This document shows positions 8,221-14,838 of a DNA stretch of 20,000 nt, one piece after another; the first letter of the stretch is position 1, and each line of letters opens with the position of its first letter. The notes beneath the pieces are model-generated. The model was not told where the DNA came from. It saw only the letters and a program-made list of their open reading frames with translations, and did no database searches. Source of the stretch: an uncultured virus (IMG/VR IMGVR_UViG_3300024520_000070) (Duplodnaviria; Heunggongvirae; Uroviricota; Caudoviricetes); the IMG/VR virus record IMGVR_UViG_3300024520_000070; one strand, written 5' to 3'. Made by a program: the position numbers and the translations under genes.

Positions 8221-8363
8221 AGAAACCTAAGCACGGTGGTGCCCAAGAAGAATCTAAACGAATTGAACAATACGCTGATCAATGGTGTAAAGATAATGGC
8301 TATCCTCTTCAGCGTAGGAGATACGTCTATCAAGGAAAGTGGGTGAAGAATGACGCCAAATGA
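8196..8363 (+). CDS. Hypothetical protein (55 aa), not in ORF track
   Basis: MHVGKNGVKKPKHGGAQEESKRIEQYADQWCKDNGYPLQRRRYVYQGKWVKNDAK; GGGGGA upstream; fills gap. Confidence 0.55.
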   Translation: MHVGKNGVKKPKHGGAQEESKRIEQYADQWCKDNGYPLQRRRYVYQGKWVKNDAK

Positions 8364-8754
8364 TGCTGCCTACATGGCTGGACTATTTGATGGTGAAGGT
8401 TGTGTTATTTATAAACAACATTTAGATACAAAACGTAAAGACAGGCCAAAACGCTATAAAGTTTGGAGAATTGCTTTGGAGATGTCCATGACTGACAAAC
8501 CCGTTATGGAATGGGTATATGACTTAGTTAAATGTGGAACTCTTAAACTCAATGTTAAAAACAAATCTCCCAGTTCTAAATCTCATTGGAAAGATCAATG
8601 GCGCTGGAGGTGTAGTCACCGAGATGCCTATCAAGTTGCTAAACTGATATGGCCATACGCTCAGGTGAAATTGCATAAGTTAGAACAAATAATAGATCAT
8701 TACGAACCGGAATTTTCCGATGATAATGTGTTTAGTCTGGAGGACTATAAATGA
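8350..8754 (+). CDS. Free-standing single-motif LAGLIDADG endonuclease-like protein
   Basis: AYMAGLFDGEGC at N-terminus followed by typical strands (LEMSMTD, QWRWRC). Confidence 0.8.
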   Translation: MTPNDAAYMAGLFDGEGCVIYKQHLDTKRKDRPKRYKVWRIALEMSMTDKPVMEWVYDLVKCGTLKLNVKNKSPSSKSHWKDQWRWRCSHRDAYQVAKLIWPYAQVKLHKLEQIIDHYEPEFSDDNVFSLEDYK

Positions 8755-10537: not shown

Positions 10538-11281
10538 TCATACCTTTAAATGTTTCACTCCAAGTACGTTAACTTCTTCCTGAGTTAATGTTTTAACATA
10601 ATGATTATTTATTTTAGCTGAGCCATATTTTCTAGCCCAGTCCCCATCAAAATAATGTGGTTCAATTTCTTTTTCTTTAATCCAGTTTTTGATTCGTGTA
10701 AGTCTTTCCATCTTTTCATTTGGTATAGAACAGAGAAAAGTATTAACAGCATATCTCTTGCCCTTGGTGACAGGTGTGACCTGATGTATCCAAAAACAAC
10801 CGGCGGGAAAGATTAAACATTCTCCTTCTTTTAAGTCTTCTTTGTGTTGACCATTAAAGAATTTAAACTGTCCACCATTAAAATGGTTATTCAACTGAAT
10901 AGTACAGCTGGCTGTAACAAAGTCATGACCATCGATATGAGGGTGAAGCTTACCACCATTTTCATAACACATTAATCTATAGATATGAGCGTAGTTAACT
11001 TCATCTGCAAATATATTAACCGAGACACAATTTAGTTTTTTTAAATGATCCATCCATTCATCGATCATTCCTTTCATAGCCTCATGTACTATGTGAAAAG
11101 TCTCACTTCCATGCAGTAGGTGAACTAGATTAAATGTAGACTCTGTGTCTACGCCAGTAAGGGCATGATAACAATGTTCGCCTGCTTTCTCTGCTTTGCG
11201 GTGTTCATACTCATCTATAAGTCTCTTACATTGGGCTTTATTAAGTACTTTTCTCTTCATTATAAATTGTCGTTGATCCAT
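10538..11281 (-). CDS. 2OG-Fe(II) oxygenase (prolyl 4-hydroxylase-like)
   Basis: HxD (HPHID), FNGGQF.F, IFPA...WIHQV.PV.KGKRY; start uncertain (11260, 11281 or 11317). Confidence 0.88.
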   Translation of the reverse strand: MDQRQFIMKRKVLNKAQCKRLIDEYEHRKAEKAGEHCYHALTGVDTESTFNLVHLLHGSETFHIVHEAMKGMIDEWMDHLKKLNCVSVNIFADEVNYAHIYRLMCYENGGKLHPHIDGHDFVTASCTIQLNNHFNGGQFKFFNGQHKEDLKEGECLIFPAGCFWIHQVTPVTKGKRYAVNTFLCSIPNEKMERLTRIKNWIKEKEIEPHYFDGDWARKYGSAKINNHYVKTLTQEEVNVLGVKHLKV

Positions 11282-11320
11282 GGGTTGAAATATAATACAA
11301 CTTAGTCTATAAAGCAACCT

Positions 11321-11547: not shown

Positions 11548-11916
11548 GTGAAACCAGAAAGAAAATTTTGGCATGAGCTTAAGAAAAATACTCCACAAAT
11601 TTGCTGGACAAGGATTGAAAACTCTGTATCTTTTGGTACTCCTGATCTATTGGGCTATAATGCTAATGGGACCTTTTTCACTGTGGAGCTCAAAGTTACT
11701 AGGGGAAACACCGTCCGCTTCTCACCACATCAATTCTCATTCCACCTCAGTCATAAACAAAACACTTTCATTCTGATCAAGGCCCTTGGTGCCTTACACA
11801 AGGGTGTAAAACTTTATGAGGGAAAAAATATCAAGGAGCTTGATGCTTGCGGCCTGAATCTGGAACCAAGGTGCTCTAGCCTGCCTGATGCTTGCTTGAC
11901 GCTTGAGGCTCTTTAG
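11548..11916 (+). CDS. Holliday-junction resolvase / VRR-NUC-like PD-(D/E)XK nuclease
   Basis: E..FW, RIEN, GTPDLLG, VELK, FSPHQ motifs. Confidence 0.82.
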   Translation: MKPERKFWHELKKNTPQICWTRIENSVSFGTPDLLGYNANGTFFTVELKVTRGNTVRFSPHQFSFHLSHKQNTFILIKALGALHKGVKLYEGKNIKELDACGLNLEPRCSSLPDACLTLEAL

Positions 11917-11943
11917 AGCTTGATGCTTGCTGCTTGAGGCTTT
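11838..11943. repeat. 7-bp-period GCTTGNN repeat cluster 1
   Basis: GCTTG/GCCTG at 11838, 11845, 11852, 11883, 11890, 11894, 11901, 11918, 11925, 11932. Confidence 0.8.
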
Positions 11944-12052: not shown

Positions 12053-12667
12053 TTAGTGTTTTCCATATGATACATTTTTTATTTCAGGATTCCAACAATT
12101 TCTACAATCTTTGCATTCGTTGTTTTGCTTAGGAGCTGGACACGTGGCGCCTGCTGTTACGACTGTCGACGTGTTGTCCCAGCCGCCCGCTGCAGGTTGA
12201 TTGATCATTGGCATGCTGAACCGGATAACTAAGTTATCAGGTGCCAGCGGCAGGAAGTGCTTCACCCAGGCCTCACGCGTCGGTAGCCAGTGCTTGACTG
12301 AAGGCGTTAACCTGCAAACTGAAAAAATTTTTGTTAGGTGATCTTCATCCTGGACATCCCCTGAGTCATGCCACCTAAAAACTTTTGATTTTTTACTATT
12401 GATTAATAATGTCATGGCCCCCGTCCAGAGCTCATGTGTAATGCTTGCCAGTCTCTTATACTGTGCAGCCTGCACCACGGGAAAAACATAACAACCCTTT
12501 AAGGCGTAGCAGCCATGGCAGGTCGAGCCCTTGACCGCTCGGAGCTTGGAGCCGGTCTTGCATTCTTTAGCTGGCAGGCCATAGGCCCAGCCAGGCATTT
12601 TTGACGGCTTGCTTAGGCCTCCGACCAGATCCCATGCTTCACTTGTTTTCATACTTTCTAAATTCAT
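12053..12667 (-). CDS. GP88-like protein (cysteine-rich, putative Fe-S)
   Basis: LPAKEC...CHGCYA, FRWHDSGD, CPA...CKDCRNCW motifs. Confidence 0.75.
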   Translation of the reverse strand: MNLESMKTSEAWDLVGGLSKPSKMPGWAYGLPAKECKTGSKLRAVKGSTCHGCYALKGCYVFPVVQAAQYKRLASITHELWTGAMTLLINSKKSKVFRWHDSGDVQDEDHLTKIFSVCRLTPSVKHWLPTREAWVKHFLPLAPDNLVIRFSMPMINQPAAGGWDNTSTVVTAGATCPAPKQNNECKDCRNCWNPEIKNVSYGKH

Positions 12668-12671
12668 ATCA

Positions 12672-12803
12672 TCAATTCATTGTGTCTTTTTTAAGGCGCT
12701 TGCTGCTTGCTGCTTGATGCTTTTTATTATTTTTATTTTTCTTCAATTCCAGGTTGTATCGGGCCCTTGCGGGCCCGGTCTTCCAGTTTATAGTTTTATG
12801 CAT
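12672..12803 (-). CDS. Small basic hypothetical protein (43 aa), not in ORF track
   Basis: MHKTINWKTGPARARYNLELKKNKNNKKHQAASSKRLKKDTMN; fills gap but is low complexity. Confidence 0.35.
   Translation of the reverse strand: MHKTINWKTGPARARYNLELKKNKNNKKHQAASSKRLKKDTMN
12698..12723. repeat. 7-bp-period GCTTGNN repeat cluster 2
   Basis: GCTTG at 12698, 12705, 12712; GCTTT at 12719. Confidence 0.75.
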
Positions 12804-13176: not shown

Positions 13177-13205
13177 ATCCTATACTATCCCAGATCCATT
13201 GTCAA
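13177..13205 (-). promoter_or_regulatory. Sigma70 promoter overlapped by tandem TRGGA sites
   Basis: Minus strand TTGACA-N17-TAGGAT (TTGACAATGGATCTGGGATAGTATAGGAT). Confidence 0.75.
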
Positions 13206-13231: not shown

Positions 13232-13283
13232 TAATATTTTTTACCCCATAACCTGAGGTTGTATCCTGTAACCAGCGCGCTTC

Positions 13284-13627
13284 CTGATCAGGGAACCCAG
13301 CAACGCTGGCAAAACTCCACCTATAAAGAGGGCTGCCAGAGGCATGCCTTATGGTCGGCTGTTTATCAAATTCCTTGGACCAGTAACCAGTGAAAACGTT
13401 TGCGTGCTTATTTTCTTAGGCCGGCCCTAACTTCGTGATTACTGATCCCAGATCCAACAATCGCGCATGATTTCTCATGGGCCGTATTCGGGTACGATGC
13501 TCCCCTAGACCATTGGATCAGGGATCAGGCCGGCAACCCGATATTTAACGTCGTTTCGCGACATACGCGCACCGGCTTTGGTCTGATCTTGAGGCAGTTA
13601 TTATTAAGGCTCATACCTCAGGAGCCT
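13284..13627 (-). ncRNA. Candidate structured non-coding RNA cassette (5' pseudoknot plus four stem-closed modules)
   Basis: No ORF in the track apart from a 10-nt overlap; GC-richer than flanks; long stems whose mismatches are G-U pairs on the minus strand; GAAA tetraloop; TATAAT just upstream. Confidence 0.6.
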
Positions 13628-13636
13628 AGTTGAGAG

Positions 13637-13666
13637 ATTATAGGAGAATTAAGGCAGAAATAAGGC
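13637..13666 (-). promoter_or_regulatory. Promoter with TATAAT and GCCTTA direct repeat in place of -35
   Basis: Minus strand GCCTTA-tttct-GCCTTA-attctcc-TATAAT. Confidence 0.6.
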
Positions 13667-13724: not shown

Positions 13725-13792
13725 TGGCAGGTGGCTGGGGATGGTGGTTAGTAGTAGAAGAAGCACAACCACAGGTTGTGCGCAAAAATCGC

Positions 13793-13857: not shown

Positions 13858-14838
13858 ATGAGTAAGATACGTATGAACACCGAGTTAAGAACTAAAATTC
13901 TTAACCGATATAGAGAAAGTGCAGAACAAGAAAACACACAGGAACTTGAAGCCATGAAGCAAGCAAGAGAACAAGTGGATATGATTTATCCATCAACTTT
14001 TGAACTTGCACGCCAGGTCGTTGAAAGGTCATATCCGAGTGAAGATGTTAAAACGTGTAGAACATTGAAGCAAAAATATGGTGAACCTTTAGACGTTGTT
14101 GCAAAAGATAAATGCTTTTATTTTTCTTATGCAAGAGAAAACCCTGGTGAAGATGAAGATAAAAATGTTTCAGAACATTTTGACTTTGGTTTATTTGGTG
14201 ATACCGATAATGGAAATAATTATCGCAACGAAAGTGGAAAGCAATTTGCTTATGCTTATTATCGTGATGAGTTAAAAGCAAAAGACCTTGACGCAGACAT
14301 CTTGGCAAAACAAAATGGCAAAGATGACAACCCACATAAAACAAAGCACATGGATTTAAATGATAGGGCTTTGGGTTATAGTGGCTACTCTAGTTATAAT
14401 CATGACCGAGATAATAATGTCGGAATTGCTAAAGACTTTGATAAGCAATACGAGTTAGACATCATTGGTACTTCACATTGTAGGTCAAGAACGATTGCTT
14501 GTACTGACCAGGAGTTTTTAATCTTCAAAATGTTAAAACAAGCTAAAGGACAATTAATAGTATGTCATCAAAAATGGATTGATAGTATTACGAAACAATG
14601 TGAAGCTATGAAAACAGGGTTGAAAGCATATCGTTATTTAAGTGAGGGTGTTGAGTTAATGTCAGAACTTGGTGTCACTTGTGATGAAGCAGAATTAATC
14701 AGAACTAATTCAACAGGACTTGTTATTTATAATCCTGTTAATTTAGCTAGTATGATTAAGGGTATGAAGAACACAACAATAACAAGAGAACAAAAGATAG
14801 CTTTAAGAAAGGCATACGAAGCAAAACAAATAAATTAG
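13858..14838 (+). CDS. Phage hypothetical protein (326 aa, probable early gene)
   Basis: Long ORF with AGAAAGG RBS; no confident domain. Confidence 0.85.
   Translation: MSKIRMNTELRTKILNRYRESAEQENTQELEAMKQAREQVDMIYPSTFELARQVVERSYPSEDVKTCRTLKQKYGEPLDVVAKDKCFYFSYARENPGEDEDKNVSEHFDFGLFGDTDNGNNYRNESGKQFAYAYYRDELKAKDLDADILAKQNGKDDNPHKTKHMDLNDRALGYSGYSSYNHDRDNNVGIAKDFDKQYELDIIGTSHCRSRTIACTDQEFLIFKMLKQAKGQLIVCHQKWIDSITKQCEAMKTGLKAYRYLSEGVELMSELGVTCDEAELIRTNSTGLVIYNPVNLASMIKGMKNTTITREQKIALRKAYEAKQIN

What the first reader, a model, noticed from the sequence alone, without database searches (positions are those of the whole stretch)
13284..13627. Tandem cassette of structured non-coding RNA modules in the phage early region
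Seen: a GC-richer non-coding stretch built from modules joined end to end by shared CTG/CAG or GATCAG ends: A 13284-13383, B 13381-13444, C 13442-13528, D 13523-13588. Module C has a 21-position stem (minus strand CUGAUCCCUGAUCCAAUGGUC / GAUUGUUGGAUCUGGGAUCAG: 17 Watson-Crick, 3 G-U, 1 U-U). It encloses two hairpins (CGUA-cccgaa-UACG; CAUGA-GAAA-UCAUG), forming a 3-way junction. B (CAGUAAUCA/UGGUUACUG), A (GGAAUUU/GGGUUCC) and D (GCCGGUG/UGCCGGC, inner GUCG-cgaaa-CGAC) also pair through G-U on the minus strand, which argues for selection on a minus-strand RNA rather than on DNA palindromes. A perfect TATAAT lies 10 nt upstream. Inference: one precursor cut (RNase III-like, at the long stems) into several small RNAs with related stems and variable cargo, e.g. 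decoys for host defence or regulatory proteins, or guides. I recognise no named RNA family.
Basis: partly seen in the sequence, partly recalled or inferred. Interest (0 to 1): 0.85.

Follow-up and report, generated by a model that had tools for sequence, protein, structure and literature searches.

The report
Shuffled small-RNA library in ocean phages
An abundant group of ocean viruses carries a non-coding stretch made of small folded RNA units that are swapped between viruses at constant stems; about two hundred different units were seen, many shaped to pair with a second copy of themselves, and what they do is not yet shown.

Summary
Real, and part of a much larger system. The window is an HTVC027P-like pelagiphage. 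Its minus-strand cassette (13272-13626) holds five RNA modules plus a 3' hairpin. The constant arms occur in 54 of 68 syntenic contigs and in cultured HTVC027P. They enclose 302 distinct cargos in 207 clusters, exchanged exactly at the arm edges. G-U and GNRA bias mark one strand as RNA. C and the overlooked leader E are covarying pseudoknots (D weaker). Cargos are enriched in loop-less palindromes: in one family 115 of 115 members keep a self-complementary 8-mer across 12 sequences, which implies RNA-RNA dimers. Rfam Flavobacterium-1 is one module of this cassette, and the Flavobacterium scaffold carrying it is a phage fragment. Best reading: an early, recombining library of aptamer-like decoy RNAs, probably cut by RNase III. 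Cutting, transcription of the cassette itself and targets are inferred, not shown. The scan earlier noted similar frame-and-cargo layouts in other phages (unchecked notes), but not this frame.

The parts
13637..13642 (-). -10 hexamer TATAAT of the presumed cassette promoter (no consensus -35 at normal spacing here)
   Evidence: in relatives a sigma-70-like promoter points at the cassette in 45 of 114 upstream regions, 18.8 expected
13591..13626 (-). Module E: 5' leader H-type pseudoknot at the presumed start of the transcript
   Evidence: 9 sequences, 79 of 79 cells paired, one pseudoknot pair seen as A-U, G-C and U-A, 0 of 500 shuffles
13523..13588 (-). Module D: 'outer' module closed by GAUCAG/CUGAUC; inner hairpin 13550-13562 whose loop can pair with 13539-13543
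   Evidence: 5 distinct sequences, 92% paired, hairpin G-C/C-G swap; the pseudoknot has no double change (88% paired), so it is weaker
13515..13528 (-). Left constant arm, two copies of a 7-nt unit; U of the U-U mismatch
13456..13514 (-). Module C cargo: three-way junction with P2 (13483-13496), GAAA-capped P3 (13466-13479) and pseudoknot 13502-13504 with 13490-13492
   Evidence: 9 sequences, 81 of 81 cells paired, 4 pairs with double changes including the pseudoknot pair (G-C 6, U-A 2, A-U 1), 0 of 500 shuffles
13442..13455 (-). Right constant arm; its last 6 nt also open module B
13378..13447 (-). Module B: outer module ending in the half arm CUGGUC; 8-nt palindrome at 13419-13426
   Evidence: only three distinct true homologues (window/L016, L001, L044); L001 keeps a self-complementary centre; predicted homodimer 14.7 kcal/mol below two monomers, no shuffle control
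13311..13367 (-). Module A core; 10-nt palindrome at 13340-13349; apical hairpin shared with Flavobacterium-1
   Evidence: 4 IMG/VR contigs, one of them near-identical to the window
13272..13309 (-). 3' hairpin of Flavobacterium-1 type with a 10-nt palindrome (13283-13292)
13177..13205 (-). Promoter-like site for the downstream 85-aa and GP88 genes; its spacer contains most of a right arm
13858..14838 (+). Divergent 326-aa gene, orthologue of HTVC027P gp35 (early); no family, no fold match
12053..12667 (-). GP88-family gene downstream of the cassette, orthologue of HTVC027P gp33

Best explanation
The stretch is one instance of a non-coding early transcription unit of HTVC023P-type pelagiphages that works as a recombining library of small, aptamer-like RNA domains. 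Shown from sequence comparison: (a) constant 14-nt arms fold into a 17-20-bp stem with a U-U mismatch; (b) cargos lie inside and between the stems, each with its own conserved fold; (c) cargos are exchanged between phages exactly at the arms; (d) many cargos keep a loop-less palindrome whatever its sequence, so they pair with a second molecule. Inferred: the cassette is transcribed early from a promoter back-to-back with the gp35-like gene; host RNase III cuts or nicks at the top of each frame; the lower arms re-pair so each module is a closed, stable unit; the monomers or symmetric dimers bind and inhibit host proteins (defence, RNA decay or regulation), and host diversity keeps the pool large. 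Architecture about 0.9, processing about 0.5, decoy role about 0.4.
For: G-U against A-C 88:3, and 30:0 when oriented by synteny alone. GNRA loops 26:2 by strand. 302 cargos in 207 clusters. Of 271 same-cargo pairs, 0 share both flanks. Half arms vary only by G-U: 26 exact, 19 G-U, 0 breaking. Pseudoknot covariation in C and E. Palindromic 8-mers 84 against 38.5 +/- 6; family P 115 of 115. The register with pb4 at stem position 17 is the only one scoring on both RNase III boxes. The flanking HTVC027P gene is early and reaches about 214,000 TPM.
Against: No transcript, strand, end or cut site of the cassette was observed. No target is known. 136 of 214 right arms had no half-arm partner by my rule. 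The RNase III fit is partial (all four proximal positions in 15% of modules, first distal pair unmet), uses E. coli rules, and counts U-U as U-G after the fact. A cut at the top of the frame would strip many cargos of their closing stem. Only about a third of cargo pieces carry an 8-mer palindrome (73 of 209, 35 expected). 14 of 68 syntenic loci lack this frame, though several hold other modules. Template switching can create palindromes and compensatory changes without selection (own knowledge); the strand bias argues against that being the whole story.
Confidence: 0.5

Rival explanations
1. The transcript stays whole and acts as a natural multivalent scaffold: long arms with palindromic stickers cross-link copies into networks, cages or condensates, and the pseudoknotted cargos recruit clients. 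The palindrome sequence could also act as a self/non-self code between co-infecting phages.
For: The window's cassette alone has three palindromic sites (B, A, 3' hairpin). Covarying palindromes are the criterion used for intermolecular pairs in OLE and GOLLD. Engineered single-strand nanostars with 25-bp arms and palindromic loops condense.
Against: 28 of 58 loci with 1.5 kb upstream have a single right arm, and many cargos have no palindrome, so valency is often low. The arms form a linear comb, not a closed junction. Half arms suggest modules close on their own.
Confidence: 0.2
2. The modules are cis-acting or largely selfish: a structured leader and RNase sink that sets stability or timing of the downstream 85-aa/GP88 operon, with cargos hitch-hiking by recombination at the arms, as PeSL cassettes shuffle T4-type early genes.
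For: No U-tract terminator follows the window's cassette. HTVC027P gp33 and gp34 form their own expression cluster at 6-9 h. Modules also stand singly behind small genes.
Against: A same-strand promoter-like site follows the cassette in 76 of 117 loci. A cis role does not need about 200 different folds with conserved pseudoknots and dimer sites.
Confidence: 0.17
3. The arms are attC-like single-stranded DNA recombination sites and the folds act as DNA.
For: Exchange points coincide with the arms. Comparative methods cannot reliably tell ssDNA from RNA. GNA triloops are also strand-biased, 17:3.
Against: Cargos carry no ORFs. None of the 21 distinct window proteins scanned (a subset of its ORFs) matched an integrase family. 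GNRA bias, pseudoknots and promoter orientation fit RNA. Cargos were never inverted: 293 same-strand hits, and the 2 opposite calls were orientation artefacts.
Confidence: 0.05
4. Cargos are guides or antisense sequences, like CRISPR spacers.
For: Constant-variable alternation and an open cargo pool.
Against: Cargos conserve folds, not linear sequence. No excess k-mer match to E. coli rRNA in either sense. The 15 matches of 18 nt to other phage DNA that I inspected lie in other cassette copies. No nuclease family sits beside the cassette. A SAR11 genome was not tested.
Confidence: 0.05

Closest known systems
Rfam Flavobacterium-1 RNA (RF02976)
   Same: Lies inside these cassettes in 10 of 80 loci scanned, HTVC027P among them. 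Window module A shares its apical and 3' hairpins.
   Different: It is one module of about 200. The window does not match the model. The Flavobacterium SCGC AAA160-P02 scaffold that holds it also carries the frame and homologues of the 326-aa and GP88 genes, so it is a phage fragment.
RNase III processing stems of phage polycistronic RNAs (T7 R1.1 type)
   Same: About 20-bp imperfect stems spaced along an early transcript; partial fit to proximal and distal boxes.
   Different: They separate folded RNAs, not genes; they are near-invariant and double as exchange points; cutting is not shown.
PeSL cassettes of T4-type phages (PMC2839356, abstract read)
   Same: Conserved elements in the early variable region that mediate modular shuffling by recombination.
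   Different: PeSLs are promoter-terminator units that shuffle protein genes; here the shuffled units are non-coding folds within one transcript.
Self-assembling RNAs OLE, ROOL, GOLLD, manA, EGFOA; engineered RNA nanostars
   Same: Covarying palindromes imply intermolecular pairs.
   Different: Those are single conserved families or designs; here the dimer sites sit on many small swappable modules, and no assembly has been observed.
CRISPR arrays and integron cassette arrays
   Same: Constant units alternate with variable units, and copy number varies.
   Different: The repeats are inverted pairs; cargos are folds, not captured spacers or ORFs; no Cas or integrase family was found among the proteins scanned.

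Membership tests
Flavobacterium-1 RNA (RF02976) | Covariance-model score at or above 58.9 bits | tested here: not met
   No hit in the window at E<=5 or, on 13240-13660, at E<=10; met by sister cassettes
Flavobacterium-1 RNA (RF02976) | 3' hairpin with the central palindrome | tested here: met
   13272-13309 aligns with the 3' end of family members L017, L081, L119, L157
RNase III substrate | Helix of at least 11 bp | tested here: met
   Pairing is nearly complete to position 17 in 226 modules
RNase III substrate | Proximal and distal box preferences (E. coli) | tested here: inconclusive
   Best joint register: at least 3 of 4 proximal positions in 51% and all 4 in 15% of 227 modules; U-U at distal position 2; distal position 1 unmet; box spacing inferred from pair numbers in PMC1540722
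RNase III substrate | Cleavage leaving 2-nt 3' overhangs | not testable with these tools
   Only assembled contigs were served
Known riboswitches and self-cleaving ribozymes in Rfam | Model match | tested here: not met
   None in the window or in 80 loci. A likeness of D's hairpin and A-rich strand to the pistol ribozyme, and of E to preQ1-I topology, is recalled, not tested.
Self-assembling RNA (kissing or palindromic dimers) | Covariation of adjacent nucleotides that keeps a palindrome | tested here: met
   Family P: 12 distinct 8-mers, all self-complementary, centres CG, UA, GC, AU; two variants each in families Q, R, U, V. In the window's own modules only B shows variation, in three sequences.
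Self-assembling RNA (kissing or palindromic dimers) | Oligomer observed physically | not testable with these tools
   Needs native gels, mass photometry or cryo-EM
CRISPR array | Direct repeats with spacers matching foreign DNA | tested here: not met
   Inverted arms; no match outside cassettes in 358 kb of phage DNA among the hits inspected; host genome not tested
Integron cassette array | ORF-bearing cassettes and an integrase | tested here: not met
   Stops in all six frames; module lengths mod 3 are 80/65/83; no integrase family among proteins scanned
PeSL | Promoter plus terminator stem-loop in each repeat unit | tested here: not met
   No promoter-like or terminator-like site within 13272-13626
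Phage tRNA cluster | tRNA or tmRNA genes | tested here: not met
   0 in the window; 7 relaxed-threshold hits in 337 loci, of which the 4 inspected are not tRNA-like

The most novel reading that the evidence does not exclude
These phages run a natural, recombination-driven aptamer library: hundreds of small tertiary folds displayed on standard stems, many self-dimerising through sequence-free palindromes, that are cut out or cross-linked into assemblies and act as RNA inhibitors of SAR11 defences or as identity codes between co-infecting phages. It would be the RNA counterpart of anti-defence gene islands.
Probability: 0.4. Interest if true: 0.95.

Novelty: categorically new. Interest (0 to 1): 0.86.

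Why it matters
[quoted passage not shown] An open pool of small natural RNA folds with built-in covariation data is a source of new aptamers, ribozymes and dimer motifs. It also gives the orphan family Flavobacterium-1 a context and a likely correct origin. The system is testable now: HTVC027P is cultured, carries the cassette, and has public directional RNA-seq (PRJNA1253180).

Tried and rejected
Rfam on the window: nothing. rRNA mimicry: k-mer matches to E. coli rrnB equal shuffles (10-mers 40 against 43). Spacer capture from phage genes: matches trace to other cassette copies. Protein coding: rejected. A CUNG-tetraloop explanation of the palindromes: rejected, CUAG 36 against CUCG 8, CUGG 9, CUUG 7. 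Restriction-site avoidance: no deficit of 12 palindromic tetramers elsewhere in the window. Expression: two seawater metatranscriptome runs (contigs only) were laid; one 102-nt contig of depth 3.7 covers 13269-13364, and neither run covers C or D; contigs show neither strand nor ends, so this counts neither way. The 326-aa neighbour gave no family, only a weak Atlas lead (Nmad5, 0.79), pLDDT 64 and no Foldseek match. My first half-arm test was too noisy and was replaced. Searches used mis-registered brackets and were redone. Alignment A1 held one row on the wrong strand and was not used. The B pattern had too short a gap. HTVC033P has the 326-aa gene in a different order; its region was not searched for modules. 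No whole genome is held for the window, and no SAR11 genome was searched for antisense targets.

Full report
Setting. The window is a phage. It encodes DNA polymerase, exonuclease and both terminase subunits, and gene order around the finding matches Pelagibacter phage HTVC027P. The finding lies between a GP88 operon on the minus strand and a 326-aa gene on the plus strand. In HTVC027P the orthologue of that gene (gp35) is early and reaches about 214,000 TPM; gp33 and gp34 peak at 6-9 h (PMC12753301, passages and Table S3 rows). The main text of that paper has no occurrence of 'non-coding', 'intergenic' or 'sRNA'.

Observation. The C stem, the TATAAT site and the raised G+C are as described. 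A, B and D are not unusual by energy alone. Module A extends to a hairpin at 13272-13309, and a fifth module, E, sits at 13591-13626. All six frames contain stops.

The frame is a family. The 326-aa protein has 516 confirmed relatives in IMG/VR, of which 80 were returned. I examined the 68 with enough upstream DNA: 54 hold the CUGAUCCCUGAUCC / GGAUCUGGGAUCAG frame, with 0 to 4 right arms in the 58 that have 1.5 kb upstream. L016 is nearly identical to the window and is not independent. HTVC027P and 023Pt_psg01 carry the frame. Among 185,579 prokaryote genomes the exact pattern occurs in 6 contigs: 3 phage fragments and 3 unrelated REP-like hairpins.

It is selected as single-stranded nucleic acid on one strand, most likely RNA. 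In 226 distinct modules position 11 is A-U in 123 and G-C in 100, and position 12 is U-A in 209 and A-U in 13. Isolated G-U against A-C at positions 15-20 is 88 to 3, and 30 to 0 in the 82 modules oriented by synteny alone; 74 of those 82 have U-U and none has A-A. Among 270 tetraloop hairpins with Watson-Crick stems, GNRA loops number 26 on this strand and 2 on the other. A promoter-like site points at the cassette in 45 of 114 upstream regions, against 18.8 in shuffles; 39 have one on the other strand, for the divergent gene.

Cargo. 302 distinct segments inside and between arms fall into 207 clusters, 164 of them singletons. Among 289 module records, 271 pairs share a cargo; 255 of these differ upstream, 240 differ downstream, none shares both flanks, and identity drops to background within three bases of the arm (the C family is over-sampled there because I searched for it). 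Each window module occurs in other orders elsewhere. Of 214 distinct right arms, 33 pair through an outer stem with the next left arm, 45 with a free half arm, and 136 had no partner by my rule. The 45 half arms are 26 exact and 19 G-U variants with no breaking change, whereas shuffles give mostly breaking ones. Outer modules are therefore also selected to close on themselves.

Window modules. C: 81 of 81 cells paired in 9 sequences, with double changes in P2 and in a pseudoknot pair. The metagenome scan, which left those positions free, gave 117 hits in all loci, 49 distinct; of the 27 with an arm remnant, 26 keep the pseudoknot, and chance hits without the fold do not. E: 79 of 79 cells, one pseudoknot pair in three forms. 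D: hairpin and closing stem covary; the pseudoknot is only consistent. B and A have three and four homologues, too few for statistics. These alignments are small and related, so the shuffle counts are not probabilities.

Self-dimerising sites. In one representative per cluster (209 pieces), palindromic 6-mers number 225 against 154 +/- 12 and 8-mers 84 against 38.5 +/- 6; window coding DNA shows little excess (119 against 102). Exposed palindromes number 60 against 21-27 in shuffles. In a prospective test on cargo family P, with eight positions left free, 115 of the 120 loci were members, and all 115 carry a self-complementary 8-mer in 12 different sequences; the 5 non-members do not. Adjacent bases cannot pair within one strand, and this is the argument used for intermolecular pairs in OLE and GOLLD (10.1101/2024.12.08.627333, passages). 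Family P is not in the window; the window's cassette has palindromes in B, A and the 3' hairpin.

Link to a known family. Rfam Flavobacterium-1 was found inside cassettes in 10 of 80 loci scanned, including HTVC027P. The Flavobacterium single-cell scaffold that holds it has the frame and both flanking phage genes. That this scaffold gave the family its name, and that the family comes from PMC5737381, is recalled: the main text has no occurrence of the name and the supplement could not be opened.

Mechanism. The most likely reading is an early non-coding unit whose modules act as aptamer-like decoys. Recombination in the arms explains the shuffling (inferred). By the E. coli rules of PMC1540722 (passages and Discussion part 1), the only register that scores on both boxes places the U-U at distal position 2 and the cut at the top of the frame; the fit is partial, and natural sites often fit poorly (PMC5371410, one passage). 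No target is identified. Rivals are an uncut multivalent scaffold like engineered nanostars (PMC11567899, passages) or natural small assemblies (10.64898/2026.07.01.735769, part 1 of 5; PMC12990946, passages), a cis or selfish role like PeSLs (PMC2839356, abstract), ssDNA sites (PMC5737381, passage), and guides.

Novelty. Ten literature searches listed no paper that describes this cassette, judged by titles and abstract openings. PMC9599517 on these phages has no occurrence of 'noncoding' or 'intergenic' (passages). Single modules may be among the 10,006 viral candidates of PMC10690425, whose alignment files could not be read. The scan's own notes describe comparable frame-and-cargo layouts in other phages and a structured leader in another pelagiphage, but searches by place, sequence and words found no note on this frame. 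Those notes are unchecked and are not used as support.

Verdict. The architecture is well supported and unlike the known systems considered. Transcription of the cassette, its processing and its function remain inferred. Interest 0.86.

Noticed in passing
window 13250-13261 and 13766-13778: Inverted element CAACC-N3-GGTT(G) next to promoters, operator-like; in 39 of 80 syntenic loci. A second inverted element, TTAGAAT-N-ATTCTAA, is in 29 of 80 loci but not in the window.
   Followed up: partly
window 12696-12716 and 11916-11936 (minus strand): Runs of a 7-nt unit beginning CAAGC, often just upstream of a -35 box; in 53 of 80 loci. The left arm is also a 7-nt repeat.
   Followed up: partly
L205, L206 (Vicinamibacterales), L207 (Flavobacteriales): Intergenic REP-like hairpins built from the same 7-nt unit as the arm, with no phage genes nearby. 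Convergent or ancestral: unknown.
   Followed up: no
L204, L203, L208: Pelagiphage-like contigs sit inside three bacterial genome assemblies (Flavobacterium, Porticoccaceae, Winogradskyella), probably as contamination.
   Followed up: partly
L081 4290-4400 and 41 other variants: The commonest outer module is a three-way junction that itself carries a further variable insert, so the modularity is nested. It is a candidate ribozyme or sub-scaffold.
   Followed up: partly
L081, L119, L256 and others (29 loci): A second frame type, A+U-rich with two U-U mismatches, carries the same cargos, module C among them.
   Followed up: partly
window 8350-8754: Small ORF with a weak LAGLIDADG match below the Pfam cut-off.
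   Followed up: no
window 10538-11317: 2OG-Fe(II) oxygenase on the minus strand beside the small terminase, at a position where HTVC027P has a short gene instead.
   Followed up: no
L009 4940-5010: A single framed module lies after the last early gene, away from the main cassette.
   Followed up: partly
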